Positions 5,694-24,525 are shown, numbered from the stretch's first letter. The stretch is 61,522 bases of DNA from Gammaproteobacteria bacterium (GCA_024686195.1 JAIBDO010000001.1:1-61522), one strand, 5' to 3'. Program-made: numbers and translations. Notes: generated by a model not told the origin, from the letters alone.

Positions 5694-5797
5694 AGCCGCA
5701 ACAAATGAACCTGAAAGCTCAAATATATTCACTTTACAGGCTTGCGACAAACGAGAATAATCAGCCCGATACCTGAATACAATTCATCTATAGGCGA

Positions 5798-10149: not shown

Positions 10150-11037
10150 CTAATCGAAGAGGTCATCGTCCAGGGCCTGCGACAACAGTTCTATTAGCGC
10201 CCTGGCCATGGGTAGTATGGGATTGCCGGATACCCATGCCAGTCCGAGCTGCTGGGTAACGGTCGGATTGACTAATTGTTTGGCGCGTGTGCCCGGCAAT
10301 TCATTGAAGCGTTTTGGAACAATGGTTGCCAGATCTCCAGCCATGACATGAAAGGCCAGTTGGAAAATCGAATTCGATTCGAGTTGTGGTCTTGGTTTGC
10401 ACTCCACGGTGGCAAAGGCCGCGTCTATCATCTGACGTTCGCGCATCGCTGGTGACAGCAGGCAAAGCGGCAGGTTGGCTGCTTCGGCCCAGGTTACCGT
10501 CGGTTGATCGTCCAGCCAGTCGTTATCGGGCAGCAACAGGTGCAAGGGTTCTTCATACAGGGCAAGAGTTTCAAGCCGGGAGTCGGTGAGCTGTTCAAGG
10601 TCGGTGAAACCAACATCCAGCTCGAAGTTTTTCAGCGCAAGTGTCAGCTGATCGATGCCCATAAATTGAATGTCGACCTGCACGACTGGGTATTCCTTCT
10701 GGAACAGACGCGCCACAATCGGCAGCATCGGCGAACTGGTAGGCATTGCGCCGATTCTCAGGCGGCCGTGCAGATTCTTCTTCATGATCGCCAGCTCTTC
10801 GAGCATCGCCGAGCGATCAGATAGCAGTCGCTTCGCCCATTCTACGACACGCAAACCTTCGTTGGTGAATCCCTGGAATTTCTGGTCACGCAGGATGATC
10901 GGAACGCCGAGCTCCTCTTCCAGCTTTTTGATCGCACTGGACAGGCTTGGTTGAGACACGAAGCAACGTTCAGCGGCACGGCTGAAGTGTCCTTCCTGCT
11001 CGAGTGCGATTAAATACTGGAATTGGCGCAGAAACAT
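10150..11037 (-). CDS. LysR-family transcriptional regulator
   Basis: 295 aa with wHTH LRQFQYLIALEQEGHFSRAAERCFVSQPSLSSAIKKLEEELG. Divergent from the TauE/GcvT-like/PanB-like genes. Confidence 0.9.
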   Translation of the reverse strand: MFLRQFQYLIALEQEGHFSRAAERCFVSQPSLSSAIKKLEEELGVPIILRDQKFQGFTNEGLRVVEWAKRLLSDRSAMLEELAIMKKNLHGRLRIGAMPTSSPMLPIVARLFQKEYPVVQVDIQFMGIDQLTLALKNFELDVGFTDLEQLTDSRLETLALYEEPLHLLLPDNDWLDDQPTVTWAEAANLPLCLLSPAMRERQMIDAAFATVECKPRPQLESNSIFQLAFHVMAGDLATIVPKRFNELPGTRAKQLVNPTVTQQLGLAWVSGNPILPMARALIELLSQALDDDLFD

Positions 11038-11143
11038 GATTGCCCTGAGTAATCAGCTAGGTGCCTATGTTACATTAGTTTGTTGCCGGAATGCTGCTGC
11101 TTAGGTGCCGGTTTTTCGAATTTTTTGTCGCGGATGACTGTTG

Positions 11144-11893
11144 ATGTCGATAACCCTGATTTTAATCTGCCTTATTGTCGGTGTGCTGATCGGTGCAGTG
11201 GGTATTGGTGGCGTGCTGCTGGTGCCCTCACTCAACCTGATTGCCGGCATCGATGTGCATGAGGCCGTGCCCGCCTGCACACTCAGTTACCTGGCAACTG
11301 GGGTCATTGGTGTCATCGTCTATGCGCGCCACGGTTCGATACAATGGCCAAAGGTCTTCTGGCTTTGCCTGGGGGCCATACCGGCGGCATTTCTGGGTTC
11401 GATCTCACTGCTCAGTATCCCTTCGATCGTCGTGATGTCCCTGATTGCCTTGCTGATGATCGTTAGCGGTATTGACGCTCTGATCAAAGCTTATCGAAAA
11501 TCCTCTGACGAGCAGCCGAAGCGCCAGTTAAGCCCGTTGCAGTTTATCGTAATCGGTTTTATCACCGGATTCGGCTCGGCCATAACGGGCACGGGTGGCC
11601 CACTAATTCTCGTCCCGCTCATCATCTTTCTCGGCTTGCCTGTTCTCACCGCGATCGGCCTCAGTCAGGCCATTCAGCTGCCGATCGCGGCGTTTGCCAG
11701 TACCGGTAACTGGATGTCCGGAAACCTGAATTTTGAACTGGCCCTGGTGATTGCGGCGGTGTTAGTGGTCGGTTCGTTCGCTGGTGCGCTACTCATACAT
11801 CGGTTGCCGGCCGAACCGATCCGCAAGATGATTGCCTTCCTGCTGGTTTTTGTCGGTGCCGGTATCGGTATCCAGCAGCTATTCCAGCTGTAG
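11144..11893 (+). CDS. TauE/SafE-family (DUF81) membrane exporter, sulfite-exporter type
   Basis: About 249 aa, multi-TM and Gly-rich, with the internal duplication typical of TauE/SafE. The track starts at TTG 11141; ATG is at 11144. Confidence 0.85.
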   Translation: MSITLILICLIVGVLIGAVGIGGVLLVPSLNLIAGIDVHEAVPACTLSYLATGVIGVIVYARHGSIQWPKVFWLCLGAIPAAFLGSISLLSIPSIVVMSLIALLMIVSGIDALIKAYRKSSDEQPKRQLSPLQFIVIGFITGFGSAITGTGGPLILVPLIIFLGLPVLTAIGLSQAIQLPIAAFASTGNWMSGNLNFELALVIAAVLVVGSFAGALLIHRLPAEPIRKMIAFLLVFVGAGIGIQQLFQL

Positions 11894-11904
11894 GTCCTGT
11901 CGCA

Positions 11905-12918
11905 GTGTTATCGCTGGCGGATCTGGTTCGAGACTATGGCGACCCCCATGCAGAGGCAATGTGCTGTCGGCAGGATTGCGCGCTGTTTGATTTTTCCTTC
12001 GTTTACCGGATACGGGTCTCGGGCCGGAATGCGATCGCAAGGATCGAACAGTTCCAGCCACGAACCGTCAGCGATATGTCGATCGGGCAGATACGTTACA
12101 GTGTCAAACGCAACGCACAGGGCAGGGTGCGATCTGATTTGACGCTATGGCGCTACGCTGAGGACGTCTTCGAGATCATGAGCGGCTGTGCCGAAGATGT
12201 AAGCGATCTGCAGGCTCAGGCGGGCGAGGAGTTCATTCTGCAGAACCTGAGTGAGAGTACCGCTATTCTCTCATTGCAGGGGCCGAACACATTGGCACAG
12301 CTAGCCTGCTTCATGGATGTTACCGAGATCAGTACTCTGCCTTATTTTCACTTTGTCAGGGCACAAATTGGCGAACTACCCTGTCTGATCGGGCGCCTGG
12401 GTTACTCTGGTGAAGCAGGATTTGAGATATTGGTAGATCAGTCTGCTAGAGACTGGTTGTGGGATTTGTTGTCCACCAGGTTTCCACCGGCCGGTTTTGC
12501 CGCGATCGATATCCTGCGAATCGAAGCAGGTTTCTTCCTGTTTACCAATGAATGTCGAATTTCTCCGTCGATTGGCGAGCTCGGTTTGTCGGCTCTGCTT
12601 GGGGACAGGAAGGGAAGTCCGGAAATCAAACTGGTTGCCTTCGAAGGGAACTGTCATCACACACCGAATCCGGTCTTGTGGCAACCGACCAGTTCTGAGA
12701 TTCGACGCCCTGATTCCGGGGAGATAATGATCACTTCGGCCTGTTTCAGTCCACTGTTTAATCGCGTGATTGGACTGGGTTTTGTTAAGTTCGGCCAGGC
12801 AAGTGACGCCATTATCGATCCCAAACGCAAATTTTCCGACGTTAAAATTTGCTCGCTTCCACCCTACGACCCGCATAAAACAAGGCCTCGAAAGGCATGG
12901 AAGGCCGACACAAGGTGA
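11905..12918 (+). CDS. GcvT-family (aminomethyltransferase-like) folate-binding protein
   Basis: 337 aa with a GTG start 11 nt after the TauE stop. GcvT-like pattern: ...AEAMCCRQDCALFDFSFVYRIRVSGRNA..., LGYSGEAGFEI, DILRIEAGF. Confidence 0.75.
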   Translation: MLSLADLVRDYGDPHAEAMCCRQDCALFDFSFVYRIRVSGRNAIARIEQFQPRTVSDMSIGQIRYSVKRNAQGRVRSDLTLWRYAEDVFEIMSGCAEDVSDLQAQAGEEFILQNLSESTAILSLQGPNTLAQLACFMDVTEISTLPYFHFVRAQIGELPCLIGRLGYSGEAGFEILVDQSARDWLWDLLSTRFPPAGFAAIDILRIEAGFFLFTNECRISPSIGELGLSALLGDRKGSPEIKLVAFEGNCHHTPNPVLWQPTSSEIRRPDSGEIMITSACFSPLFNRVIGLGFVKFGQASDAIIDPKRKFSDVKICSLPPYDPHKTRPRKAWKADTR

Positions 12919-13033
12919 AAGCTATCACCCGATAAAGAGAAGCTCTTTGACAGTTTTTCACGGCCCGGCTTAGTATCTCCGGGCTGCAAAATTGACTTTT
13001 GCAATAATAAAATCAACCACCCACGAGGGAGTC

Positions 13034-13912
13034 ATGTCAGAAGAAACGCCTAGACGAAAGAAAGTAACGATACGTGAATTGCAGCGCAAGATGCGTGATG
13101 ACGAGCAGATTGTGCAGATGGCGATTTACGATTACAGAAGCGCAGTAATCGCAGATCGGCTGGGTATCGACATTCTATGTGTCTCCGATACGGGCGGAAT
13201 GATTTTATTCGGTCATCAGTCAACCGTCACCGTGAGCTTTGACGAAGTCATGATGATGTCGAAGGCTATTGATCGCGGCAGCAAGTACGGCCTTAGAATG
13301 GTCGATATGCCTTACTGGAGCTTTCATGTCTCGCCCGAGCAAGCGGTAGAAAACGCCGGCAAGTTCGTGCATCAGGCAAATGCTGAAGTGATGAAGTGCG
13401 AAGGCAATCAACACCACGCGAAGAATATTGAAGCCATCGTCAAGGCCGGCATTCCGGTGCAGGGGCATATCGGTATTACGCCCATGCGCATGCCGCAGCT
13501 GGGCGGGTTCATCGCCCAGGGTAAAACCTCAGATCGTGCCAAGGAACTCATTGATGACGCCTGGGCAATGGTAGATGCGGGATGTTTTTCTATCATGTGT
13601 GAAGTTACCACCGAGGAAGTTTGCGAATATCTGGCCGAAACATTGCCGGTGCCGGTGATCAGCCTTGGAGCAGGAAACAAGGCCCACGGTGTGCACATTA
13701 TAACTTCCGATTTATTGCATCTGTATGAAGAACATGTTCCACGGCACTCGAAAATTTATACCGACCTCATTCCAATCATGGAAGACGTTTTTATTCGCTA
13801 CCGCGACGAAGTAAGAGAGCGAGTGTATCCGGGACCCGAACACACGGTCTATATGCCACCTGAAGAGCTAAAGAAATTTGCAGAGGCGATGGACTGGAAG
13901 TCAAAACTGTAA
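13034..13912 (+). CDS. 3-methyl-2-oxobutanoate hydroxymethyltransferase (PanB) family paralog
   Basis: Colinear with my memory of E. coli PanB. Equivalents of the GDSLGM, VKIEGG and LECVP catalytic segments are present (SDTGGM, MKCEGN, MCEVT), with C-terminal VYPGPEH. ATG 13034 follows GAGGGAG; the track gives TTG 12992. Confidence 0.8.
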   Translation: MSEETPRRKKVTIRELQRKMRDDEQIVQMAIYDYRSAVIADRLGIDILCVSDTGGMILFGHQSTVTVSFDEVMMMSKAIDRGSKYGLRMVDMPYWSFHVSPEQAVENAGKFVHQANAEVMKCEGNQHHAKNIEAIVKAGIPVQGHIGITPMRMPQLGGFIAQGKTSDRAKELIDDAWAMVDAGCFSIMCEVTTEEVCEYLAETLPVPVISLGAGNKAHGVHIITSDLLHLYEEHVPRHSKIYTDLIPIMEDVFIRYRDEVRERVYPGPEHTVYMPPEELKKFAEAMDWKSKL

Positions 13913-13947
13913 GACCTGCAAACTGGATATTCCAGTCTTACCGGCAG

Positions 13948-13990
13948 TAGACCCGGCCATCACACTAGTAAGGCGGGTCTATTGTTTTTA
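13948..13990 (+). terminator. Rho-independent terminator candidate after the PanB paralog
   Basis: TAGACCCGGCC-(13 nt)-GGCGGGTCTA forms a 10-bp stem with one bulged G, followed by TTGTTTTT. Confidence 0.55.
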
Positions 13991-14040
13991 TATTAACGAG
14001 TTGTTTGCAGTTAGAAACGTACGCAGGAGTTTAAATTAAG

Positions 14041-15336
14041 ATGCCAGCCAGAAATCATAAGCAGTGGAGTGCCAAACCCGATCTAGAACTCGGGGAGTGG
14101 GTCGATAGTCGGATTTATTCTGACGAAGAGATATTCGAGGAAGAGCTGGACAAACTCTGGAAAAAATCCTGGATAGCACTTTGCCATGAATCGGAACTCC
14201 CGGAACCCTATGATTTCCGCACCGGGATTATCGCACGTGAGCCGGTTATCATGGTTCGCGGACCGGATAATAAAGTGCGCGCTTTTCTGAACGTTTGTCC
14301 ACACCGTGGAATGACGATTGAGCGCCGGCCCTCTGGCAGCTTCGCGCCGGCTCAGCCGTCAGGTAACCCGAAACACATGACCTGTTTATTCCATGCCTGG
14401 CAGTTTGACATGAAAGGCAACTGTGTTGACATACCGCGCCAGAAAGAGGGCTACCAGGATCGCCTCGACAAATCTTCCCAGGGTCTTCGGGCTTTGCGTT
14501 GTGAAGTCAAATACGGTGGTTTTGTCTGGGTCTGCCTTGATGATCACACGGAGTTTAACGTCGAAACCTGGGCCGCTGGTGCGATGGATTGCATCAAGGA
14601 TTCACTCGATGCCGAGCCGCTCGAACTGATTCACTACCACAAGGCGATCATCGATTGTAATTACAAACTGTGGCACGACACCAATAGTGAGTTCTATCAC
14701 GATTACATGCACTATCACAATCGCATCACCGGCTTCAACGACGACTATTTTCAGCGTGAGTGCTCGGCTTATGACAATGGCCACGTCAATGTTGGCACCT
14801 TCACCGTGAACTATGAAGAGTATGATGTTGCGGAAGATCGCGGCACCCTGTCATTCCCTAATCTACCCCCCGATAACTGGTACATGGTCGACATGTTTCC
14901 GGGATTGAACTTCAACCTGCGTGGTTCCGTGGTGCGCATGGACTTGATGACGCCGCTGAGCGCCAACCAGGTGATGATCGAATTCCGTGGTTTCGGGCTG
15001 AAAAGTGATTCGCCTGAAGATCGTGCGCATCGTATCCAGCATCACAATTCAATCTGGGGCCCACTGGGCCGTAACCTGCATGAAGACCTCATTGGTGTGG
15101 CCGGCCAGGGTACGACAATGACACCTAAATCAGAGCCGCGTCGTATTTTGCACGGTCGTCACGAGGGTGCTTACATACACGACGAAATCGGTATGCGTCA
15201 CTTTTACGAATCATGGGGTAAGAAGATGGACCGGTTGCCCAGTGATCCCGAGCAGAAATACAAAGCCGGCAAGGTAATGGGACCGGAAATGCCGCCCGCG
15301 AAGGGCTTGTCTACTTTCGCTGGCAAAGGTGCTTAA
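14041..15336 (+). CDS. msmA: Rieske non-heme-iron oxygenase alpha subunit, methanesulfonate monooxygenase hydroxylase large subunit-like
   Basis: 431 aa. Rieske ligands are C86-P-H88 and C115-L-F-H118, separated by 26 residues (nt 14296-14394). There is a mononuclear-iron His/Asp region (EFYHDYMHYH). AGGAG lies upstream of the ATG. The symbol rests on the X26 spacer and the operon context. Confidence 0.75.
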   Translation: MPARNHKQWSAKPDLELGEWVDSRIYSDEEIFEEELDKLWKKSWIALCHESELPEPYDFRTGIIAREPVIMVRGPDNKVRAFLNVCPHRGMTIERRPSGSFAPAQPSGNPKHMTCLFHAWQFDMKGNCVDIPRQKEGYQDRLDKSSQGLRALRCEVKYGGFVWVCLDDHTEFNVETWAAGAMDCIKDSLDAEPLELIHYHKAIIDCNYKLWHDTNSEFYHDYMHYHNRITGFNDDYFQRECSAYDNGHVNVGTFTVNYEEYDVAEDRGTLSFPNLPPDNWYMVDMFPGLNFNLRGSVVRMDLMTPLSANQVMIEFRGFGLKSDSPEDRAHRIQHHNSIWGPLGRNLHEDLIGVAGQGTTMTPKSEPRRILHGRHEGAYIHDEIGMRHFYESWGKKMDRLPSDPEQKYKAGKVMGPEMPPAKGLSTFAGKGA

Positions 15337-15485
15337 AGGCGGGTTTGCAGCGGAGAAACTGAACACGGACAACGGGGCAAGAGCTGATGGAGCAACGCCC
15401 TCGTCCAGTGTGATGCCTGCAGCATCGTAAGTTTGATTTAGCAACGCGCCTGCATGGCGTGAGAATATTATTGGAGAAGCTAGGA

Positions 15486-15983
15486 ATGAATGTAGAGGAA
15501 CAGCATATCAAATCGCTGGTCAGGGAAACGATATATGCGGCTGCCATGTTTCTGGACGATCAGAAATGGAATGACTGGATCGATCAGTGCGATGAAAGCT
15601 TCCACTATTCGGTGGTTACCTACAGCCATGAAGTGCGTAAGGATCTGACCTATCTGCTGATGAGCCACAAGGAAATGCATCCCTACTTTGATTTGCTACC
15701 AAAACACAATACGGATCATTCGCCGTTGCGGCGTCATGCCAGCATTTATACGGTAGATGTATCTGAAGACGGTAAAACGGCCGAGGCAGTGACGTCTTTC
15801 ATCATGACCCAGGAAATGATTGATGGCATCAGTGCGCCACTTTATTCAGGCGAAAATCGGTTATACCTGACCGGAAAATATTATGATAAGTTCAAAATTG
15901 ATGGTGAATCAGTGAAATTTACCGAACGGGTTGCACGGGTATACACCCGGCGGTTCGACAAAGGCACTCATTGGGTTTTCTGA
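15486..15983 (+). CDS. msmB: Oxygenase beta (small, NTF2-like) subunit
   Basis: About 165 aa directly after the alpha subunit, with the size and pattern of ring-hydroxylating-dioxygenase beta subunits. ATG 15486 follows GGAG; the track gives GTG 15459. Confidence 0.7.
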   Translation: MNVEEQHIKSLVRETIYAAAMFLDDQKWNDWIDQCDESFHYSVVTYSHEVRKDLTYLLMSHKEMHPYFDLLPKHNTDHSPLRRHASIYTVDVSEDGKTAEAVTSFIMTQEMIDGISAPLYSGENRLYLTGKYYDKFKIDGESVKFTERVARVYTRRFDKGTHWVF

Positions 15984-16093
15984 TTGGCATCTAACCGAAC
16001 TTTAGCCGTCATTGCAGGTTAGGTAAGCTCGAATGGTTGTCGGATGTTTCTCGGCTGCTAGACGAGTCAATAATAAATAACAGGAGTAGAGAG

Positions 16094-16474
16094 TTGAGTT
16101 GGGAAAAAATCTGCGGAGTTTCCGATGTTCCGGAAAACGCTCTGGAAAAGTTTGAAGTAAATGGCATTGAGCTAGTCGTCGCCAATTATGGCGGTGGTTT
16201 CCGTGCCTTTCCCCCGCGCTGTCCACACATGGAAGAAGCGCTTTGCGACTCTGCCGTGTTGTTCGACGGAATGCTGACCTGTACCAAGCACCTTTGGCAG
16301 TGGGATATGGGGTCAGGGGAAAAAACCGGAATAGCCGAAAAGGAGTTGCTGTTTTATGACGTTAAACAGGAAGGTGGCGATCTTTATGCGCAGGTCGACG
16401 AGGCGCTCGTCTATGAAGACGATGACGATGAAGACGAAGACGAAGACGACGAGGATTTTTTCAATGCCGACTAA
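16094..16474 (+). CDS. msmC: Rieske-type [2Fe-2S] ferredoxin with a poly-acidic C-terminal tail
   Basis: CPHMEEALC...(17 aa)...CTKHLWQWD, with the tail YEDDDDEDEDEDDEDFFNAD. I prefer TTG 16094, preceded by AGGAG at 7 nt spacing; the track gives TTG 16037. The start is uncertain. Confidence 0.7.
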   Translation: MSWEKICGVSDVPENALEKFEVNGIELVVANYGGGFRAFPPRCPHMEEALCDSAVLFDGMLTCTKHLWQWDMGSGEKTGIAEKELLFYDVKQEGGDLYAQVDEALVYEDDDDEDEDEDDEDFFNAD

Positions 16475-16628
16475 TGCCCGTGACGCTATCGAAAACGGAA
16501 GTCGGATAAGCATAGCGTCAGAGATGGCGGGTCAATAGAGCATATTATGCGAGTGACACTGGATTTTTTTAGCGGACGTCAAGGCGGGCTTCGGTGGGTC
16601 GCAAATCGACCCTGTGACCTGGATAATC

Positions 16629-17687
16629 ATGATGACCGGTAAAACGTTGAATATCCAGGTTAATGCCAGAAACCGCGCCTATACGCTTGATGGCACCAGT
16701 GATGATAAAATCCTCAACCTTGGCTTGAGTAACGCCATCGACCTCCCCTATGAGTGTGGTAGCGGTACCTGTGGTACCTGTAAAGCACGATTAATATCGG
16801 GAGAGATCTGTGATCGGTGGCCCGAAGCACCCGGGCGCAAGTTCTTGAAGCCTAAGAAAGGTGAGTTCCTGATGTGCCAGTGCGCTGCAAAAACGGATAG
16901 CGTGATCGAAGTAGAAAGTTTTGTGCACACCATGGAGGCCGGTGCCTGTGTACCCGGGTTAATTACTGGCCGAGTCAATAGTTCAAAACTTTTGACCCCG
17001 GATGTGATGTCACTGCAGATAACGATGGATCAGACATTCGATTTCGATGCGGGCCAGTTTATGCTGGTGCAGTTCCCCGAAGTAGTGGGTTTTCGTGGTT
17101 GGTCGATGGTGAATTATGAGCGTCATGCAAAAACCCTGGATTTTGTCATAAAGAAAAAACCTGACGGAGTACTGTCCGAATGGCTGTTTGGTAACAATTG
17201 TGAAGGTGTGGAAGTTGAACTCTACGGGCCATTGGGAAATGCCACCTTTTATTCGAGACTGGCCAAAAACATTCTTTGCATCGCCGGTGGTAGCGGCATT
17301 GCAGGCATCATGTCCATTCTTTCGAGGGCGGCACAGGACGGCTATTTCTCGCAGTATAGCGGGGATGTGTTTTTCGGTGTGCGCACCATGAAAGACGCAT
17401 TCTTTCTCGATGAACTAGCGGCTTTCCGCGCCGAGTGTGGTGAAAAACTGAATATCGTGATCGCTCTATCAGATGAAGACGTCCCCGCCTCTGCGCAGAT
17501 CGATTATCCGCAACTGGCGTTTGACAATGGGTTTGTTCACGAGGTGGCCGGTCGCCATATGGAAGATCGCTATCAGAATGTGAGAGCCTATCTTGCCGGC
17601 CCCCCACCTTTGGTGAATGGCTCGATAGGTATGCTACTGCGGGCGCGAGTGACTACCGATAATATCCGCTATGACAAGTTCAGTTAA
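16629..17687 (+). CDS. msmD: Oxygenase reductase: plant-type [2Fe-2S] ferredoxin domain fused to an FAD/NAD(P)H ferredoxin-reductase domain
   Basis: N-terminal CGSGTCGTCK...C cluster, followed by an FNR-like fold (RGWSMVNY, GGSGIAGIMS). ATG 16629; the track gives GTG 16614. Confidence 0.8.
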   Translation: MMTGKTLNIQVNARNRAYTLDGTSDDKILNLGLSNAIDLPYECGSGTCGTCKARLISGEICDRWPEAPGRKFLKPKKGEFLMCQCAAKTDSVIEVESFVHTMEAGACVPGLITGRVNSSKLLTPDVMSLQITMDQTFDFDAGQFMLVQFPEVVGFRGWSMVNYERHAKTLDFVIKKKPDGVLSEWLFGNNCEGVEVELYGPLGNATFYSRLAKNILCIAGGSGIAGIMSILSRAAQDGYFSQYSGDVFFGVRTMKDAFFLDELAAFRAECGEKLNIVIALSDEDVPASAQIDYPQLAFDNGFVHEVAGRHMEDRYQNVRAYLAGPPPLVNGSIGMLLRARVTTDNIRYDKFS

Positions 17688-17697
17688 GAGTGTCGTC

Positions 17698-18429
17698 ATG
17701 AGCAAGAATATACACATATGTAAGCTGAGTGATATTCCCGCCAACGGAATCAAGGATTTCGTGCTTGAGGGCGGCGAAAAAGTGCTTATCGCTAACTTCA
17801 GCGAGAATTATTATGCCTATAACGGAAATTGCCCTCATCAGGGTACATGCCTTGCCGAAGGTTTTTTCGACGGTGCGGTACTGACCTGTAACAAACATTT
17901 ATGGCAGTGGGATATCACCACCGGAAAGCCCATCGGCCTTGCCGAAGCCCCACTGGAAAGCTATCAGCTCGAGATTGAAGACGGCGAGATATATGTTCGC
18001 AAGGCCAATGCGTTGAAGATGGCCGAGTTATTCAGGGATATTTCAACTAGCACGCAGGACTTGCTGGTGAAACTCACCCGGCGAGAAGAATATGAAGTTG
18101 GTAGCGTTCTATACGATCTGGGTGATCTGACAGACGATCTCTACATTCTCGAATCGGGTCGGGTCGAGTTCGAACTTGGTCGAGACGAACGTACCAGTGC
18201 GGCCGGGTTTATCTTGCGTAAAGGCGAGGTTTTCGGATGGGCCGCACTACTTGAGCATCAACCGATACGTATCGCCCAGGCTGTTTGTGTGGAAAAATCG
18301 GTTCTGTTGCGTCTCAATGGCGAGGAAGTTGTTAAGGTATTAGCAACCGATCCGGCTTCTGGCTACCTGGTCATGCGCCAGTTAGCTACTTTGATCACCA
18401 GGCACTTCACCTCGTCGAGCGAGCAATGA
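17698..18429 (+). CDS. Rieske [2Fe-2S] ferredoxin (MsmC paralog) fused to a C-terminal cyclic-nucleotide-binding-like domain
   Basis: The N-terminal about 105 aa align with the preceding ferredoxin (CPHQGTCL...LTCNKHLWQWD). The C-terminal about 130 aa have the Crp/cNMP beta-roll pattern (VLYDLGDLTDDLYILESGRVEF...RKGEVFGWAALLEHQPIRIAQAVCVEKSVLLRL). ATG 17698 lies just after the reductase stop. Confidence 0.8.
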   Translation: MSKNIHICKLSDIPANGIKDFVLEGGEKVLIANFSENYYAYNGNCPHQGTCLAEGFFDGAVLTCNKHLWQWDITTGKPIGLAEAPLESYQLEIEDGEIYVRKANALKMAELFRDISTSTQDLLVKLTRREEYEVGSVLYDLGDLTDDLYILESGRVEFELGRDERTSAAGFILRKGEVFGWAALLEHQPIRIAQAVCVEKSVLLRLNGEEVVKVLATDPASGYLVMRQLATLITRHFTSSSEQ

Positions 18430-18600
18430 TGAGAGGAGAGCGGCGATTAATAACCGAGTATGAATAACTGAGGATGATTGCAACTCAATGTAAGGAGGTC
18501 ATGATTAAAAAGTAAGGCACCAATCTTTAACCATAAAAAGTTGTTTAGCGCGTTTAGACAATTGACAATTTTAATAATCGAAAATAGTGAGGAGTTATAA

Positions 18601-19755
18601 ATGTTATCTAAATTAAAAAGTATCCAACATCGGGTCACTACCGGTTTCGCTGCGTTGATTGTAGCGTTAGGCCTTACGGCGCCCGGATTAGTGTCCACCG
18701 CATCTGCCGCTGAAATTGATTTTGGCAAGGTCGGAGATCCGATCAATCTTGTTGTAGGTTATCAGCCATATTACACAGAAGCCTGGTCCGGTGTGGTCAT
18801 GAAGAGCCTGAAGCTGTACGAAAAGTACTTGCCGAAAGGGTCGACTGTTGAATTTCAGATTGGCCTGCAAGGCGGTATTATCGTTAACGCCATGCTCGCA
18901 GGAAAGCAACACATCGGCTACATGGGTGACATGCCGGCCATCGTCGCCACCACCAAGGATCGCGTAGCTGACATTCGTATCGTTGCGACCGCAGGTCTTG
19001 GTTTTGATCAGTGCAATAACATGCTGGTCAGAAATGATGCACCGCAGTTTGCCAATGCCGGCGAAGCCATCCAGTGGATGGATGGGAAGGTCGTAGCAGT
19101 ACCGAAAGGCGCCTGTACTGACCGCTTTGCACTGGCTGTTTTCGAGAAAGAAAACATCAAGCCGGCCAGCTACCTGAACCAGAACATCGAAGTAATCACC
19201 AGTGGCTTCCGCGCTGGCAAGCTCGATGCGGCTGCGATCTGGGAACCAACGGCATCACGTCTGGTTGAGGAAGGACTGGCACGTAAAGTTGCTTCTGGCG
19301 CCTCGGTTGATGAGAATGATGGTGGTTTTATCGACATGCGTGGTGACCTGATTGACCAACGTCCCGACGTTGTCAAAGCCTGGCTGAATGCCGAACTCGA
19401 CGCGCAATTGTTCATGGCTGATCCCAAAAACACCATGGCAATCGTGAAGATGGCTGAAGAGCAAACCACTGGCTTCGAATCCAAGGTGCTTTGGAAAGCT
19501 ATGGTTGGTACCACACCGGTACTCCAGGGCGGCACACCGGTTCGAAATGAACTGGCTTTTGCTATTACCCCGAAGGCCCAGGCGCTGATCGACAAAGCAA
19601 CTGTCTTTCTGCACTCCATCAAGACGATCAAAGTGGATACCCTGCGTGACAACGCGATCGAGCGTAGCTTCACCGAAGAAATCCTGAAGGAGCGTGGTCT
19701 GTCAGCACCCGTTGGCAAGATGTGGGCTCAGCCAGATTCTGCTTACGGTATGTAG
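18601..19755 (+). CDS. ABC transporter periplasmic substrate-binding protein, NitT/TauT (NMT1/SsuA-like) family; msmE-like
   Basis: 384 aa with a signal peptide ending ...STASA-AE. GAGGAG precedes the ATG. Sits beside cognate permease and ATPase genes. Confidence 0.85.
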   Translation: MLSKLKSIQHRVTTGFAALIVALGLTAPGLVSTASAAEIDFGKVGDPINLVVGYQPYYTEAWSGVVMKSLKLYEKYLPKGSTVEFQIGLQGGIIVNAMLAGKQHIGYMGDMPAIVATTKDRVADIRIVATAGLGFDQCNNMLVRNDAPQFANAGEAIQWMDGKVVAVPKGACTDRFALAVFEKENIKPASYLNQNIEVITSGFRAGKLDAAAIWEPTASRLVEEGLARKVASGASVDENDGGFIDMRGDLIDQRPDVVKAWLNAELDAQLFMADPKNTMAIVKMAEEQTTGFESKVLWKAMVGTTPVLQGGTPVRNELAFAITPKAQALIDKATVFLHSIKTIKVDTLRDNAIERSFTEEILKERGLSAPVGKMWAQPDSAYGM

Positions 19756-19788
19756 TGCCTGACATAACTTTGTTAGTTCTGTAGAGGA

Positions 19789-19820
19789 CCCCCCGACAGG
19801 AAAATGTCCCGGTCGGGGGG
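19789..19820 (+). promoter_or_regulatory. Strong intra-operon RNA hairpin after the binding-protein gene
   Basis: CCCCCCGAC-(14 nt)-GTCGGGGGG, a 9-bp G/C stem with no downstream T-tract. Confidence 0.5.
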
Positions 19821-19933
19821 CCATCTCTACGCATAGAGCAACAGTTAGTAAATAAATGTAGTTATACCTGGGTGTGCATTCGGCATGGTTGTGCGTGTGC
19901 AGGATACCCGGAACATAAATAGAGGAAGCAGGT

Positions 19934-21286
19934 ATGCCTGACCCGGCAAACAATTCGGAAATTCTAAGCGCCTTGAAAAGCGCGATGCCCTTTCAGATGG
20001 TACCCGGTAATCTGATGCAGGAGATTGCTGCAATCTGTACGCAGGAATCATATGAAGCAGGTGAGAAAATATATGACCTGGGCGCGGTAGCAGACGATGT
20101 TTTCATCGTCGCTTACGGAAGCGTGCGACATACCCTGTCGGCGGATACAGACGCGAGCAAGCATGAGAAAACCATGCGCAGCGGTGATGTTTTCGGCTGG
20201 GCCGCTGTTCTTGAAGGTCAGAGTGTACGTATGGCGGCGACTGCCAGCATCGAGCGTACCCTGGTGCTACGCATCAACGGCAAAAAACTGATCAAATTGT
20301 TTGAGAGCGATCCCGCGGTCGGTGACGTTGTCATGACGCGATTCGCGACCTTGATTAATAAAGAATTCTACGTGCCCAGATCGATTGCCGATCAGGTGCC
20401 GGGCTTCAAGCAAGCCCTCAATGCAAGCAATCTTCAGGGCTCTGAAGTGACCACCATGGCGTTAACCGTCTATCGGATTTCGACCTGGCTGAAAAGCCCG
20501 CGACCGTACCTGATGTTGATCGGTTTTGCACTGTTCCTCAGCTTCTGGATGCTGTCGGTCGAGATTTGGAAATTACCGCGCTTTGTCGATATGCCTGGGC
20601 CGACCGAGGTGTTTACCGAGTGGTTCAGCGAAGATCCCTATTACGGTCTGTCGATCTACACCCCCGAGTATTACAAGCACATTGGCATAAGCCTGCAACG
20701 TATTGCCTTCGCCTTCTTTCTGGCGACTGGGCTGGGTGTGCCACTGGGGCTGTTCCTCGGTTGGTCGAAGAAATTCCGTGAATATATTTTCCCCCTGTTC
20801 GAGGTGTTTCGGCCAATTCCGGTTCTCGCCTGGGTACCACTGGCGATTATCATGTTCAGTGGCTCTGAAACTCCGGTTATTTTCCTGACTTTCCTGGCCT
20901 CATTCTTCGCTACAACGCTGAACACCATGCTGGGCGTAGAATCGATCGACGAGTCCTACAGTCGGGCTGCTCGATGTCTGGGTGCCAGTCGCTGGCAGAC
21001 ATTCGTTCATGTGGTGATCCCCGGCGCTATGCCCTACATTTTTACCGGCCTGCAAATATCCATCGGTGTCGCCTGGTTCTCGCTGGTGGCGGGAGAGATG
21101 GTGTCCGGTCAGTACGGCCTGGGATATGTCATTAACACCGCCTACATGATGATCGAATATCCGAAAATTATCATCGGCATGATCACCCTTGGCGTAGTCG
21201 GCTACATCACCAGCGCCATGGTGCGCATGATGGGTGATTACCTCATGCAGTGGCGGGTGCGTGAACTGGCCCTCGGAGATAACTAA
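19934..21286 (+). CDS. ABC transporter permease (NitT/TauT family) with an N-terminal cyclic-nucleotide-binding-like domain
   Basis: 450 aa. Residues about 12-145 have the cNMP/Crp-like beta-roll (EKIYDLGAVADDVFIVAYGSVRH...SGDVFGWAAVLEGQSVRMAATASIERTLVLRI). The remainder is a 6-TM BPD_transp_1-type permease. Confidence 0.85.
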   Translation: MPDPANNSEILSALKSAMPFQMVPGNLMQEIAAICTQESYEAGEKIYDLGAVADDVFIVAYGSVRHTLSADTDASKHEKTMRSGDVFGWAAVLEGQSVRMAATASIERTLVLRINGKKLIKLFESDPAVGDVVMTRFATLINKEFYVPRSIADQVPGFKQALNASNLQGSEVTTMALTVYRISTWLKSPRPYLMLIGFALFLSFWMLSVEIWKLPRFVDMPGPTEVFTEWFSEDPYYGLSIYTPEYYKHIGISLQRIAFAFFLATGLGVPLGLFLGWSKKFREYIFPLFEVFRPIPVLAWVPLAIIMFSGSETPVIFLTFLASFFATTLNTMLGVESIDESYSRAARCLGASRWQTFVHVVIPGAMPYIFTGLQISIGVAWFSLVAGEMVSGQYGLGYVINTAYMMIEYPKIIIGMITLGVVGYITSAMVRMMGDYLMQWRVRELALGDN

Positions 21287-22149
21287 TGAGTGCAGTAATA
21301 GATGAAAATTTAGGTTCGCTGGCGGACGTCACCGACGGCGCAATCAGCATTAAGGATGTGGTCAAAATATACGACCCGGATGGGGCCGCGGTGATGGCGG
21401 TCGACCATTGTTCGATCGAAATTCCAGCTGGGGAAATCTGTATGATCGTCGGCCCGTCGGGTTGCGGCAAGACAACCCTGCTGAATGCCATTGCCGGTTT
21501 CCACGGCATCACTTCCGGCAGTATCCACCTCGATGGCGAACTGTTGTGCGGCCCTGAAAAGCCACAGGCAGAGCCCGGTTCTGATCGCATTGTAGTGTTC
21601 CAGAACGGCGCACTATTCCCCTGGAAGACCAATCTCGACAACGTTGCTTTCGGGCCGATGATGGCTGGTAAGCTGAGCAAGGAGGAAATCTACGATAAGG
21701 CGCGCAGCATGATGGCAGACGCGGGCCTGAGCGGCAACGAGAACAACTATCCGGGCGAAATATCCTCGGGCTTGCGGCGTCGGGTCGAAATAGTCCGCGC
21801 ACTCATGAACGATCCCAAAGTATTGCTATTCGATGAGCCTTATCGCGCGCTTGATTCTCTCACCAAGTCGGTTATGCATGAAGCCTTGCTGGAAATCTAC
21901 TATCGCAACAAGGTCACGATTTTCTTTATAACTCACGATCTCGAAGAGGCGATCTTCCTTGGCCACCGGTTGATCATCATGTCTTCCCGACCCTGTAAGC
22001 CAAAGAAAATTGTAGAAGTGGATATACCCCATCCACGCGATTACAGCGTGCTGACTTCTCCCCGTTTTCGGGAGCTTATGAACGAAGCCAAAGACGTCGT
22101 GCATGAGGAGGCTACCAAAGCCTTCGAAGCCGGCGAAAAAGAAGGATAG
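21286..22149 (+). CDS. ABC transporter ATP-binding protein (NitT/TauT family)
   Basis: Walker A GPSGCGKTT, signature ISSGLRRR, Walker B LLFDEP. Its start shares 1 nt with the permease stop. Confidence 0.9.
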   Translation: MSAVIDENLGSLADVTDGAISIKDVVKIYDPDGAAVMAVDHCSIEIPAGEICMIVGPSGCGKTTLLNAIAGFHGITSGSIHLDGELLCGPEKPQAEPGSDRIVVFQNGALFPWKTNLDNVAFGPMMAGKLSKEEIYDKARSMMADAGLSGNENNYPGEISSGLRRRVEIVRALMNDPKVLLFDEPYRALDSLTKSVMHEALLEIYYRNKVTIFFITHDLEEAIFLGHRLIIMSSRPCKPKKIVEVDIPHPRDYSVLTSPRFRELMNEAKDVVHEEATKAFEAGEKEG

Positions 22150-22156
22150 AACAGAG

Positions 22157-22981
22157 ATGAGTGTAAGCAATTTTTCAGACAAGCTGTTCAGTAAGGCAGC
22201 GATGCGTGGCATCTTCGCGATCGTCGTTTTCGTGCTGATATGGGAAGTCGGTGCTCGTTCCGAGCAATGGTTTGGTTATCGTTTCCCGTTTATTGGATTG
22301 GTACCCCCGCCCACCGATGTATTCGTCAGCTGGGGAGGATTGATTGCGGATCCCAGTTACTGGCAAAGCTGGTACATGAGTTTCCTGCGTGTTTTCGGAG
22401 GATTCGCGGCGGCCATGGTCATCGGAATCCCGATGGGTTTGCTAATGGCGGTCAATAAAGCCAGTTACGGCATCATTTTTCCGTCTTTTGAAGTGCTGCG
22501 TCCTATTCCACCGCTAGCCTGGGTGCCGGCGTCGATCATCTTCTGGCCTACCCAGGAATTGTCGATTGCCTTCGTCACTTTCCTCGGCGCGTTTTACACC
22601 ATTGTTATCAATGTGCTGGGTGGCGCTAAATCGATCAACAAGCAGTTTTTGCAGGCCGCGCAATCTATGGGAGCGTCACAGTGGGACATCTTCCGTCGCA
22701 TCGTTCTCCCTGCAACATTGCCATCGATTGTGGTTGGTTCTGCAGTTGGTATGGGAATTACCTGGGAGGTTGTGGTCGCCGCAGAAATGATCTCGGGTGG
22801 TGGCAGCTCCGGTGGTGGTGCCGGTGGCGGGCTCGGATTTTTTATCTGGAGCTCTTATGTGGGTGGATCCTACGAACAGATCATTGTCGGCATGATCAGT
22901 ATCGGCATCGCCGGTTATATAAGCAGCGAGCTATTGCGGCAACTCGGTGGTTTGCTAACTCCCTGGCTGAAAACACGGTAA
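22157..22981 (+). CDS. ABC transporter permease (NitT/TauT family), second membrane subunit
   Basis: Permease fold with a Gly-rich insertion EMISGGGSSGGGAGGGLGFF. I use ATG 22157 (MSVSNFSDK...). The track start at 22103 would overlap the ATPase gene by 47 nt. Confidence 0.85.
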   Translation: MSVSNFSDKLFSKAAMRGIFAIVVFVLIWEVGARSEQWFGYRFPFIGLVPPPTDVFVSWGGLIADPSYWQSWYMSFLRVFGGFAAAMVIGIPMGLLMAVNKASYGIIFPSFEVLRPIPPLAWVPASIIFWPTQELSIAFVTFLGAFYTIVINVLGGAKSINKQFLQAAQSMGASQWDIFRRIVLPATLPSIVVGSAVGMGITWEVVVAAEMISGGGSSGGGAGGGLGFFIWSSYVGGSYEQIIVGMISIGIAGYISSELLRQLGGLLTPWLKTR

Positions 22982-22986
22982 CCCAG

Positions 22987-23874
22987 ATGAATACAACTAC
23001 TCAAGATTCGGTTAAGCCAAAAACGGCTTCCTTCGCACAAGCCAGCAGCGAAATTGTGGCGACGAATATTTCCAAGTCCTATGGCGCAGGTCCTTTTGCC
23101 AAGCAGGTTGTCGATAACTGTTCGTTTACCATCGAAAGCAATAAATTGACCGTGATGATCGGGCCATCGGGTTGCGGCAAAAGTACTCTCATCCAGCTGA
23201 TTGCGGGTTTTGAGAGTCCTGATAGCGGTACGATTACGATGAACGGCAATCCGATCACGGGTCCGGGAAAGGATCGTCTGGTACTGTTCCAGGAGTCTGC
23301 ACTTTTCCCGTGGATGACTACCTATGACAACATCATGTATGGTCCTCGAGCGCGCGGTGAAGATAACGCCGAATCGGTAGAGTTGGCCGAGTTTCTGCTG
23401 GCCAAGGTCGGTCTCGAGGCTTTCAGGGACAAGTACCCGCAACAGCTCTCGGGCGGCATGCAGCGTCGAGCAGAACTGGCACGGGCAATGATCAACAAGC
23501 CCGAAGTGATGATCCTTGATGAGCCGTTTCGCGGTCTGGATAACATGTCCAAGGAGTTGATGTGGGAATACTATGCAGCACTCTACGAAGAAGACAAAAA
23601 TACCAACTTTTTCGTGACCACGGACATTGACGAAGCCATCTTTCTCGCCGATCGCCTGTTGATTATGACTAATCTCCCAACCAACTGCCGTTCCGTTATC
23701 GAGATCGATATACCCCGCCCGCGTCGGATCGACGATATCGGTAACAACGCTCGTGCGAATGATATCAAGAAAGAGGTGATGACCTTGCTACACGAGGAAG
23801 CGATGAAATCCTTCTCGGGTGGCAGTAAGGCCGCGGCAGATTTCCTCGATGCTTATTCCAAGCGCGCCGGTTGA
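22987..23874 (+). CDS. ABC transporter ATP-binding protein (NitT/TauT family), second ATPase
   Basis: Walker A GPSGCGKST, signature LSGGMQRR, Walker B MILDEP. The true start is ATG 22987 (MNTTTQDS...). The track's extension back to 22681 is an out-of-frame read through the permease gene. Confidence 0.9.
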   Translation: MNTTTQDSVKPKTASFAQASSEIVATNISKSYGAGPFAKQVVDNCSFTIESNKLTVMIGPSGCGKSTLIQLIAGFESPDSGTITMNGNPITGPGKDRLVLFQESALFPWMTTYDNIMYGPRARGEDNAESVELAEFLLAKVGLEAFRDKYPQQLSGGMQRRAELARAMINKPEVMILDEPFRGLDNMSKELMWEYYAALYEEDKNTNFFVTTDIDEAIFLADRLLIMTNLPTNCRSVIEIDIPRPRRIDDIGNNARANDIKKEVMTLLHEEAMKSFSGGSKAAADFLDAYSKRAG

Positions 23875-23912
23875 GTCAACCTGCCACTGTTAAACAATTG
23901 GTTTAAATCGAA

Positions 23913-24116
23913 ATGCCTGATTGGTTACTCTATCGTCCCACCATTATTGGTCTAGCCGTAGTGGGGGGAATCCTGTCAATAGTGGCATCTTCCTGTCAAT
24001 CGCGGGAATTGCTTCCTGAGCCCGCGATCGGATGGTTGAACAAGGCCTCCTACGCATTCATGATGGTCAGCGTCACCTTGTTTATCTCTGCCGGATTGCT
24101 GGGTGTCGATCCATAA
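23913..24116 (+). CDS. Possible small two-TM membrane protein
   Basis: 67-aa ORF with two hydrophobic helices, 38 nt after the ATPase gene. No clear Shine-Dalgarno sequence. Confidence 0.3.
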   Translation: MPDWLLYRPTIIGLAVVGGILSIVASSCQSRELLPEPAIGWLNKASYAFMMVSVTLFISAGLLGVDP

Positions 24117-24525
24117 TTTGAAGTACGGCACTGTCATTATGTCTATTACCTGCCGCAGGCTACTTAATTAGTATCACGCACCAATGTTGCGCTTGAGCCG
24201 ACGCTGACGATCAAACCGTAAGGCAGCAGAACCCTGCCAGTGATTTACGCGCAGGGATTGTCGCAGGTTTAACAAATCCAACCAGTTCAGCTTATGTTTC
24301 AGACTGGACCTTGCACAAAACAAGGGACTGCTGGTCGATGGCGCAATCCCTGTCCAGTGCTCCGTAGCAATCTGGTCTGGCCAATGCAGGCATTACGCCG
24401 GGAGTCGGGCAGCTCTCTCTGTGTTGTAGTTTCGATAGCGCACACTATTGAGGTTAACGGGACGTTGTCCCTCAGCATCACTCGTCGGTGTCGGGTGAAT
24501 TGGTTTACAATCTCCGTTTCATAAC

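What the first reader, a model, noticed from the sequence alone, without database searches (positions are those of the whole stretch)
14041..17687. Rieske oxygenase alpha subunit with a CXH-X26-CXXH spacer, the MsmA hallmark
In the 431-aa alpha subunit the ligand pairs are C86-P-H88 and C115-L-F-H118. Exactly 26 residues lie between H88 and C115 (RGMTIERRPSGSFAPAQPSGNPKHMT, nt 14296-14394). The usual spacing is about 15-17 residues, and the two ferredoxins in this same cluster have 17.

As I recall the literature on Methylosulfonomonas methylovora, an X26 spacer was reported as the unusual feature of the MsmA hydroxylase. Its operon msmABCD has the same order as here: large subunit, small subunit, Rieske-type ferredoxin, then a ferredoxin/FNR-type reductase. 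A NitT/TauT-type msmEFGH importer is associated with it. Characterised examples that I know of are alphaproteobacterial methylotrophs. This cluster sits among genes whose character I cannot place taxonomically.
Basis: partly seen in the sequence, partly recalled or inferred. Interest (0 to 1): 0.6.

Follow-up and report, generated by a model that had tools for sequence, protein, structure and literature searches.

The report
Methanesulfonate monooxygenase operon, known hallmark
This is an ordinary, intact copy of the four-gene methanesulfonate monooxygenase operon (msmABCD) in an uncultured marine-type gammaproteobacterium, and the unusual 26-residue gap in its iron-sulfur motif is the already published signature of that enzyme.

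Summary
Observation confirmed. The 431-aa protein (14041-15336) reads C86-P-H88, 26 residues, C115-L-F-H118. The spacer itself is nt 14305-14382. One slip: the second ferredoxin has a 16-residue spacer, not 17.

Interpretation supported.
- The X26 spacer is the published MsmA signature (PMC4433239).
- It is present in 119 of the 120 closest database homologues and in all 80 MsmA copies from 79 named genomes.
- It is unique among about 18 Rieske proteins in this genome.
- Among more distant relatives (37% identity or less) the spacer falls to 17-18 residues.
- In a tree built without the insertion columns, the protein sits in a fully supported clade with Filomicrobium, Methylobacterium and Hyphomicrobium MsmA. 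It is far from the aromatic dioxygenases.

The whole neighbourhood recurs in alpha- and gammaproteobacteria and matches the published Filomicrobium Y segment: LysR, TauE sulfite exporter, GcvT-like, PanB-like, msmABCD, msmEFGH and a second ATPase.

The host is an uncultured gammaproteobacterial MAG. Gammaproteobacterial msm clusters are already reported (PMC8371827).

Verdict: new member of a known kind, low interest. What the spacer does is still unknown. The PDB copy searched holds no MsmA structure, and AlphaFold2 models the loop with low confidence. Enzyme activity was not tested.

The parts
10150..11037 (-). LysR-family regulator, divergent from the cluster
   Evidence: Pfam HTH_1 plus LysR_substrate. 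A homologue (45-93% id) lies next to msm genes in many of the 79 related loci. It is listed in the Filomicrobium Y segment.
11141..11893 (+). TauE/SafE-type sulfite exporter
   Evidence: Pfam TauE, 2.3e-39. Syntenic in many loci and in the Filomicrobium Y table.
11905..12918 (+). GcvT-like folate-binding aminomethyltransferase (inferred capture of formaldehyde onto tetrahydrofolate)
   Evidence: Pfam GCV_T, 4.9e-44. Syntenic in many loci. Listed in the Filomicrobium Y table. The function is inferred.
12992..13912 (+). PanB-like hydroxymethyltransferase paralogue
   Evidence: TIGR00222 scores 206 bits, just under its 207.55 cut-off. The housekeeping panB lies elsewhere, on contig C61, at 337.7 bits. 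Homologues in alpha- and gammaproteobacterial loci are 75-95% identical.
14041..15336 (+). msmA, hydroxylase alpha subunit (431 aa, 49.7 kDa)
   Evidence: Rieske plus Ring_hydroxyl_A domains. 97% identical to a protein that JGI names methanesulfonate monooxygenase large subunit. Inside the MsmA clade.
14296..14394 (+). Rieske ligand motif C86-P-H88-X26-C115-L-F-H118 (spacer alone is 14305-14382)
   Evidence: The extra 9 residues relative to cumene and biphenyl dioxygenases show in the HMMER alignments. Family consensus: CPHRGMxiERRPsGSFlegqPSGNPKrmTCMFH.
15459..15983 (+). msmB, hydroxylase beta subunit (174 aa from GTG; an ATG at 15486 with a better ribosome-binding site would give 165 aa)
   Evidence: Weak Ring_hydroxyl_B match. 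43-87% identical homologues directly follow msmA in 78 of 79 loci; the exception, L034, ends about 350 nt after msmA. 20.6 kDa.
16037..16474 (+). msmC, Rieske-type ferredoxin with an acidic C-terminal tail
   Evidence: Pfam Rieske. C62-P-H64-X17-C82-T-K-H85. 16.4 kDa, pI 4.05.
16614..17687 (+). msmD, reductase (plant-type 2Fe-2S, then FAD, then NAD domains)
   Evidence: Pfam Fer2, FAD_binding_6 and NAD_binding_1. BenC- and MmoC-like by NCBIfam. C-x4-C-x2-C...C, RGWS and GGSGIAG motifs; 39.3 kDa.
17671..18429 (+). Second Rieske ferredoxin fused to a cNMP-binding-like domain (accessory; not in the classical operon)
   Evidence: Pfam Rieske plus cNMP_binding. Spacer of 16. Full-length matches only in the four nearest gammaproteobacterial loci.
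18601..19755 (+). msmE-like periplasmic sulfonate-binding protein
   Evidence: NMT1_2 and the SsuA family. 55% identical to the Filomicrobium insigne MsmE.
19934..21286 (+). msmF-like permease with an extra N-terminal cNMP-binding-like domain
   Evidence: BPD_transp_1 plus cNMP_binding. The N-terminal domain aligns in only 3 of 48 loci that hold an MsmF homologue.
21286..22149 (+). msmG-like ABC ATPase
   Evidence: ABC_tran; taurine/SaoA-like. Syntenic.
22103..22981 (+). msmH-like second permease
   Evidence: BPD_transp_1; TauC/SaoP-like. Syntenic.
22987..23874 (+). Second ABC ATPase of the importer
   Evidence: ABC_tran, 5.8e-36. Follows msmH in most loci and in the Filomicrobium Y table. The ATG at 22987 was worked out from the translation, not checked directly.

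Best explanation
Bases 14041-17687 encode a complete three-component Rieske non-haem-iron methanesulfonate monooxygenase (MsmABCD).

Inferred electron path, from the domain content and from the enzyme purified from Methylosulfonomonas methylovora M2:
- NADH reduces the FAD of MsmD.
- Electrons pass through MsmD's plant-type [2Fe-2S] cluster to the Rieske ferredoxin MsmC.
- They then pass to the Rieske cluster of MsmA (C86, H88, C115, H118).
- Finally they reach a mononuclear iron in the MsmA catalytic domain. H220 is one ligand; H224 or H226 and D349 are the probable others.

There O2 hydroxylates the methyl carbon of methanesulfonate. The product breaks down to formaldehyde and sulfite.

MsmEFGH plus a second ATPase import the substrate. 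TauE exports sulfite. The GcvT-like and PanB-like proteins probably pass the C1 unit to tetrahydrofolate.

The 26-residue spacer is a 9-residue insertion in the hairpin between the two Rieske ligand pairs. It is fixed in length across the family. Its role is not known; it could lie at the ferredoxin-docking surface or at the subunit interface.

Shown here: sequence features, family membership and synteny. Inferred: substrate, products, electron path and physiological role.
For: - Motif and spacer.
- Domain content of all four components.
- Component masses are 49.7, 20.6, 16.4 and 39.3 kDa. The purified M2 enzyme has 48, 20, 16 and 38 kDa (PMC4433239).
- X26 is the published MsmA signature.
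- 119 of the 120 closest homologues (63-97% id) carry X26, and JGI names many of them msmA.
- 80 of 80 copies in 79 named genomes carry X26.
- Tree with the insertion columns dropped: the window protein lies in a 24-member X26 clade (SH-aLRT 100) with Filomicrobium insigne, Methylobacterium, Hyphomicrobium and Hansschlegelia. X17 'MsmA-like' proteins and aromatic dioxygenases lie outside.
- The F. insigne locus has several checked gene lengths and spacings identical to the published MSA-degrading Filomicrobium strain Y. Window proteins are 71/52/51/44% identical to its MsmA/B/C/D and 55/57/70/60% to its MsmE/F/G/H.
- The same accessory genes (LysR, TauE, GcvT, PanB) flank msm in many loci and in strain Y.
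- H220 aligns with the first iron-ligand histidine of cumene and biphenyl dioxygenases, and E217 with their bridging aspartate.
- H224, H226, E348 and D349 are invariant or nearly so.
- HEDL aligns with HDDL of the IadD-type dioxygenase.
Against: - No biochemical or growth data exist for this organism, which is an uncultured MAG.
- The M. methylovora M2 MsmA sequence itself could not be fetched. The anchor to a characterised enzyme is therefore indirect, through Filomicrobium and the literature.
- NCBIfam has no MsmA model. The best curated matches are aromatic dioxygenase alpha subunits, far below their cut-offs, and NCBI records name close relatives 'aromatic ring-hydroxylating dioxygenase'.
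- The second histidine ligand is at +4 or +6 from H220, not the usual +5, so the iron ligands are only partly assigned.
- AlphaFold2 gives pLDDT below 50 for residues 89-108, so the model says nothing about what the spacer does.
- No dedicated formaldehyde-oxidation genes (Fae, glutathione-dependent dehydrogenase) were found in the 91%-complete assembly. The fate of the C1 unit is inferred.
Confidence: 0.9

Rival explanations
1. It is a true member of the MsmA clade, but its physiological substrate is another small sulfonate (ethanesulfonate, isethionate, sulfoacetate or similar) rather than methanesulfonate.
For: The window belongs to a distinct sub-clade of 7 sequences (SH-aLRT 100) that is only 65-72% identical to the alphaproteobacterial type. 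Some alphaproteobacterial MAGs carry both types (L007/L027, L008/L015, L009/L017), which leaves room for diverged specificity. The binding protein matches only generic SsuA/TauA families.
Against: The sub-clade keeps the spacer sequence, the catalytic-domain invariants and the whole accessory gene set. That set includes the C1-handling GcvT-like and PanB-like genes, which make sense only for a one-carbon product. The TauE exporter fits any sulfonate.
Confidence: 0.07
2. It is an aromatic ring-hydroxylating dioxygenase, as NCBI's automatic names for close relatives suggest.
For: The best PDB sequence matches are cumene and biphenyl dioxygenase alpha subunits (6e-30). The best NCBIfam matches are HcaE and anthranilate dioxygenase.
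Against: Those matches cover only the Rieske domain and the first iron-ligand region (residues about 14-221) and score 110 bits against cut-offs of 670-830. The catalytic domain alone finds nothing in the PDB better than E = 0.05. The tree separates the protein from the aromatic dioxygenase group. The neighbours are a sulfonate importer and a sulfite exporter, not ring-cleavage genes.
Confidence: 0.02
3. The enzyme is a methanesulfonate monooxygenase, but the cell uses it only to obtain sulfur, not carbon or energy.
For: The 2.84-Mb assembly shows no RuBisCO, Fae or glutathione-dependent formaldehyde dehydrogenase. Serine-cycle genes were not searched for.
Against: A dedicated sulfite exporter and two folate/C1-transfer genes in the same cluster point to sulfite being in excess and the C1 unit being harvested. 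Sulfur scavenging from methanesulfonate is normally done by the flavin-dependent MsuD/SsuD system (PMC8234197, listed). The window is full of demethylating enzymes that feed tetrahydrofolate.
Confidence: 0.25

Closest known systems
MsmABCD methanesulfonate monooxygenase of Methylosulfonomonas methylovora M2 (also Marinosulfonomonas methylotropha TR3)
   Same: Four components in the order alpha, beta, Rieske ferredoxin, reductase. Component masses match within 2 kDa. The CXH-X26-CXXH motif is present in the alpha subunit. An msmEFGH ABC importer is linked.
   Different: Here the importer lies downstream on the same strand, whereas it is divergent in M2. A second Rieske ferredoxin with a sensor-like domain follows msmD. 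The host is a gammaproteobacterium. Sequence identity to M2 was not measured because the sequence could not be fetched.
msm region of the MSA-degrading Filomicrobium strains Y and W (KM879220; proxy here is the F. insigne locus L022)
   Same: The same set of genes is present: LysR, TauE, GcvT, PanB-like, msmEFGH plus an extra ATPase, and msmABCD. MsmA is 71% identical and carries X26.
   Different: In Filomicrobium the msmEFGH genes are divergent, MsmF is short (295 aa, no sensor domain), there is no Rieske-cNMP gene, and SoxCD sulfite dehydrogenase genes are present in the segment. No SoxCD gene lies among the ORFs of 10150-23874 here.
msm cluster of North Sea Nitrincolaceae MAGs (PMC8371827)
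   Same: A gammaproteobacterial msm operon with ABC transporter genes downstream. The proteins were detected by metaproteomics.
   Different: A different gammaproteobacterial family. Relatives named Candidatus Njordibacter are 65-67% identical.
'MsmA-like' proteins with a 17-residue spacer (Methylibium petroleiphilum PM1, Methyloversatilis universalis FAM5) and Rieske-less MsmA-like proteins of SAR116 and phage HMO-2011
   Same: They are the nearest outgroups in sequence: 34-37% identity for the full-length X17 and Rieske-less representatives, and one representative with a 52% partial match.
   Different: They lack the 9-residue insertion or all four cluster ligands. No evidence links them to methanesulfonate oxidation.
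MsuD/SsuD FMNH2-dependent alkanesulfonate monooxygenases
   Same: They also convert methanesulfonate to sulfite and formaldehyde (PMC8234197).
   Different: An unrelated fold and cofactor, expressed for sulfur scavenging under sulfate starvation. Nothing of that kind is in this cluster.
Terephthalate dioxygenase TPADO, salicylate 5-hydroxylase NagGH and carnitine monooxygenase CntA (nearest solved structures)
   Same: Same overall alpha-subunit fold, TM-score 0.64-0.77.
   Different: Only about 20% identity. They have a 16-18-residue Rieske spacer and different substrates. The PDB copy searched holds no MsmA structure.

Membership tests
MsmA (methanesulfonate monooxygenase alpha subunit) | Rieske motif CXH-X26-CXXH | tested here: met
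   C86-P-H88, 26 residues, C115-L-F-H118. The spacer sequence matches the family consensus.
MsmA (methanesulfonate monooxygenase alpha subunit) | Groups with MsmA of genera that hold proven MSA degraders, apart from X17 MsmA-like proteins and aromatic dioxygenases | tested here: met
   A 24-row X26 clade with SH-aLRT 100 includes Filomicrobium, Methylobacterium and Hyphomicrobium. The insertion columns were excluded from the tree.
MsmA (methanesulfonate monooxygenase alpha subunit) | Direct sequence comparison with the biochemically characterised M. methylovora M2 MsmA | not tested
The Filomicrobium locus served as a proxy.
MsmA (methanesulfonate monooxygenase alpha subunit) | Mononuclear iron site (2-His-1-carboxylate) | tested here: inconclusive
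   H220 aligns with the first His ligand and E217 with the bridging Asp. H224/H226 and D349 are conserved candidates, but the His spacing is +4 or +6, not +5.
MsmABCD operon | Gene order alpha, beta, Rieske ferredoxin, Fer2-FAD-NAD reductase, with masses about 48/20/16/38 kDa | tested here: met
   compared.
MsmABCD operon | Linked msmEFGH NitT/TauT-type ABC importer | tested here: met
   Genes at 18601-23874. Syntenic in most related loci.
MsmABCD operon | NADH-dependent oxidation of methanesulfonate to formaldehyde and sulfite; growth of the host on MSA | not testable with these tools
   Needs expression and assay, or cultivation.
Aromatic ring-hydroxylating dioxygenase alpha subunits (HcaE, BphA, AntA, BenA equivalogs) | Score above the curated NCBIfam equivalog cut-off over the full length | tested here: not met
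   The best score is 109.9 bits against a cut-off of 830, and only residues 21-223 align. The catalytic domain alone has no PDB match better than E = 0.05.

The most novel reading that the evidence does not exclude
The 9-residue insertion is held at exactly one length in about 200 sequences examined here, with invariant G99, S107 and G108. It may be an ordered working part of the enzyme that forms only in the alpha3beta3 assembly or on ferredoxin binding. For example, it could be the docking surface for the acidic MsmC, or a cap over the path from the Rieske cluster to the iron. It would then be what adapts a ring-hydroxylating scaffold to a one-carbon anionic substrate. No structure or mutagenesis addresses this in the PDB copy or the literature searched.
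Probability: 0.3. Interest if true: 0.4.

Novelty: new member of a known kind. Interest (0 to 1): 0.2.

Why it matters
Methanesulfonate is a major atmospheric oxidation product of dimethyl sulfide. Knowing which marine bacteria can mineralise it matters for sulfur-cycle budgets.

This window adds one more uncultured gammaproteobacterial lineage to the known carriers of msmABCD/EFGH.

It also shows that NCBI's automatic annotation still mislabels the protein as an aromatic dioxygenase, because no curated MsmA model exists. The X26 rule, checked here on some 200 sequences, would make a simple and reliable annotation criterion.

The finding does not reveal a new mechanism.

Tried and rejected
- **Original papers.** Fetching de Marco 1999 (PMC93639) and Baxter 2002 (PMC126542) failed because they are not held. 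The M2 sequence and its published ligand assignments could not be used directly.
- **Structure model.** An AlphaFold2 model from a 61-sequence alignment was good overall (pLDDT 82, pTM 0.83). Residues 89-108, which hold the insertion, scored below 50, so nothing can be said about the loop.
- **Fold and sequence searches of the PDB.** These found only distant Rieske oxygenases and no MsmA.
- **Catalytic domain alone.** A PDB search gave two marginal hits, useful only to support D349.
- **Promoter and terminator scan of 10900-24600.** It gave no more sites than shuffled sequence, so operon boundaries rest on synteny.
- **The divergent X26-bearing representative P0122 (47% id).** A search of 400 Pseudomonadota genomes found no close relative, so its genomic context remains unknown.
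- **Taxonomy.** rpoB and recA are missing from the MAG. ParE gave only 'Gammaproteobacteria bacterium' names.
- **Thiotroph idea.** The nearest named relatives of MsmA are Candidatus Thiodiazotropha. I considered that the host might be a sulfur-oxidising autotroph that uses the released sulfite as an electron donor. I rejected this because no RuBisCO or AprA was found.


Full report
**Observation.** ORF 14041-15336 (+) translates to 431 residues. It contains a single C-x-H (C86-P-H88) and a single C-x-x-H (C115-L-F-H118), separated by exactly 26 residues, RGMTIERRPSGSFAPAQPSGNPKHMT. The gene order is as described:
- alpha subunit, 14041-15336
- small beta subunit, 15459-15983
- Rieske ferredoxin, 16037-16474
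- Fer2-FAD-NAD reductase, 16614-17687

One detail is wrong. The second Rieske ferredoxin (17671-18429) has a 16-residue spacer, not 17.

**Is the spacer unusual?** Yes.
- I scanned the organism's own assembly (2.84 Mb, 268 contigs, 91% complete) for all Rieske-type motifs. About 18 genuine Rieske proteins have spacers of 16-17 and the bc1-type protein has 20. Only this protein has 26.
- HMMER alignments to cumene and biphenyl dioxygenase alpha subunits show the difference as one clean 9-residue insertion between ...ERR and SGN....

**What family is it?**
- The 120 closest proteins in a 5.8-billion-sequence collection are 63-97% identical. 119 of them carry exactly 26 residues with a strongly conserved sequence, and JGI names many of them 'methanesulfonate monooxygenase large subunit'.
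All 80 copies in the 79 best loci have X26.
- A search of 1.84 billion cluster representatives gives the outer boundary. Of the 70 near-full-length representatives (340 aa or longer), only the three that are at least 47% identical have X26.
- The next families (37% identity or less, plus one representative with a 52% partial match) have 17-18 residues or lack the Rieske ligands altogether. This matches the published remarks on X17 'MsmA-like' proteins and on Rieske-less copies in SAR116 and phage HMO-2011.

**Tree.** I built a maximum-likelihood tree of 97 sequences. The insertion columns were dropped automatically because fewer than half of the rows fill them. The window protein falls in a 24-member X26 clade with SH-aLRT 100. 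That clade also holds Filomicrobium insigne, Methylobacterium oxalidis, Hyphomicrobium, Hansschlegelia, Ancylobacter and several gammaproteobacterial MAGs. X17 and Rieske-less proteins sit just outside. The aromatic dioxygenase-like representatives and the genome's own Rieske paralogues are distant.

[quoted passage not shown] They report it in every organism shown to grow on methanesulfonate and propose it as the MSAMO signature. They also say that its function is unexplained. PMC5068391 repeats this.

The purified M2 enzyme has components of 48, 20, 16 and 38 kDa. The four ORFs here give 49.7, 20.6, 16.4 and 39.3 kDa. I could not obtain the M2 sequence or the original papers.

As an anchor I used the F. 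insigne locus L022. Five of its gene lengths (the ABC transporter gene, the extra ATPase, MsmH, MsmE and MsmC) and two checked spacings are identical to the base with the published table for the MSA-degrading Filomicrobium strain Y. Window proteins are 71, 52, 51 and 44% identical to its MsmA-D and 55, 57, 70 and 60% identical to its MsmE-H.

**Neighbourhood.** Mapping 15 window proteins onto the 79 loci shows a recurrent gene set:
- a LysR regulator
- the TauE/SafE sulfite exporter
- a GcvT-like protein
- a PanB-like protein
- msmABCD
- msmEFGH plus a second ATPase

The same accessory genes are listed for Filomicrobium Y. In most alphaproteobacteria the importer is divergent from msmABCD. In the window and its closest relatives it lies downstream on the same strand. 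The cluster here runs from 10150 to 23874. The flanking genes (OsmC-like upstream, an isopropylmalate/isocitrate dehydrogenase family gene downstream) are not consistently linked.

**Mechanism.** The following is inferred from the domains and from the characterised enzyme.
- MsmD carries a C-x4-C-x2-C...C plant-type ferredoxin motif, an RGWS flavin motif and a GGSGIAG nucleotide motif.
- MsmC is a small, very acidic Rieske ferredoxin (pI 4.05).
- In MsmA, H220 aligns with the first iron-ligand histidine of the dioxygenases and E217 with their bridging aspartate.
- H224, H226, E348 and D349 are invariant or nearly so.
- HEDL aligns with HDDL of an IadD-type dioxygenase.

Electrons from NADH would therefore reach a mononuclear iron. 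There O2 hydroxylates methanesulfonate, giving formaldehyde and sulfite.

The sulfite exporter and the two folate/C1 genes fit disposal of both products. The PanB-like gene is a paralogue: the housekeeping panB lies on another contig. No RuBisCO, AprA, Fae or glutathione-dependent formaldehyde dehydrogenase was found in the 91%-complete assembly. The host therefore looks like a heterotroph that channels C1 units through tetrahydrofolate. This agrees with the many demethylating Rieske oxygenases and the MttB-family gene in the same window.

**The spacer itself.** An AlphaFold2 model built on 61 homologues is good overall (pLDDT 82, pTM 0.83), but residues 89-108 score below 50. The nearest solved structures are terephthalate dioxygenase, salicylate 5-hydroxylase and carnitine monooxygenase, at about 20% identity. 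No MsmA structure exists in the PDB copy searched. No open paper since 2016 in the held library addresses it. The strict length conservation and the invariant G99, S107 and G108 argue that the loop is functional, but its role remains open.

**Host and distribution.**
- The MsmA-nearest named genomes are a 'Gammaproteobacteria bacterium' MAG (96%), Candidatus Thiodiazotropha (85-87%), Arenicellales (85%) and Cocleimonas (80%).
- A ParE marker from the same assembly matches only uncultured Gammaproteobacteria MAGs at 91% or more.
- Within the host's genus, 9 of 36 other species genomes carry msmA, in two sequence types (92-96% and 65-68% identical). None of 24 other families sampled in the class has it.
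- In an even sample of 401 Pseudomonadota genomes (G000 included), 3 carry an MsmA-type match (46-49% identical to the P0122 query), counting the window's own genome.
- The cluster is thus a patchy accessory trait.
- Gammaproteobacterial msm clusters are already published. Beta and gamma sequences appear in the 2015 tree, and Nitrincolaceae MAGs have metaproteomic detection.

**Verdict.** The feature is the known hallmark of a known enzyme family in a new host lineage: a new member of a known kind, of low interest. The scan had already noted the surrounding island and the two sensor-domain fusions on this same window. I did not rely on those notes for the MsmA assignment.

Noticed in passing
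window 17671-18429 and 19934-20400: A second Rieske ferredoxin fused to a cNMP-binding-like domain follows msmD, and the MsmF-like permease carries a similar N-terminal domain. Full-length matches occur only in the nearest gammaproteobacterial loci: 4 loci for the ferredoxin fusion, and 3 of 48 loci for the permease domain. The Filomicrobium MsmF is only 295 aa. Earlier scan notes already cover these fusions.
   Followed up: partly
window 12992-13912: The PanB-like gene in the cluster is a paralogue (206 bits, just under the TIGR00222 cut-off). The true panB lies on contig C61 (338 bits). It is 75-95% identical across the alpha- and gammaproteobacterial loci, while MsmA is 65-96%, which suggests a specific role in handling the formaldehyde produced.
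   Followed up: partly
L007/L027, L008/L015, L009/L017, L016: Several alphaproteobacterial MAGs carry two msmA loci of different sequence type (77-78% and 70-72% identical to the window). In those MAGs the window-like copy has msmB (and in L007 msmC) next to it but no reductase or importer. L016 has msmAB twice on one contig, which recalls the duplicated msm operons reported for Marinosulfonomonas TR3.
   Followed up: no
proteins P0122, P0126, P0143, P0125, P0133, P0138: Just outside the core MsmA clade lie rare divergent proteins. Some still have X26 (47-54% id). One has X17 with a 52% partial match, and two have lost all Rieske ligands. Whether X26 arose once before the core clade and was later lost is unresolved, because the forks are poorly supported.
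   Followed up: partly
window 40650-42032, 47953-49311, 59336-60400; also 4143-5750: The window holds three more Rieske oxygenase alpha subunits (all with a 16-residue spacer) and an MttB-family methyltransferase. The assembly holds at least nine Rieske oxygenase paralogues. The organism looks specialised in demethylating small methylated compounds.
   Followed up: no
host genus: msmA is present in 9 of 36 other species genomes of the genus, in two sequence types (92-96% and 65-68% identical). This points to more than one acquisition.
   Followed up: partly
window 15459-15486 and 16614-16629: The first-in-frame GTG starts of msmB and msmD are probably too early. An ATG at 15486 is preceded by a GGAG-type ribosome-binding site. 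An ATG at 16629 would remove the odd MTWII N-terminus of the reductase.
   Followed up: no
whole assembly G000: The MAG lacks detectable rpoB and recA despite an estimated 91% completeness. Absence calls for pathway genes in this genome should therefore be read with care.
   Followed up: no
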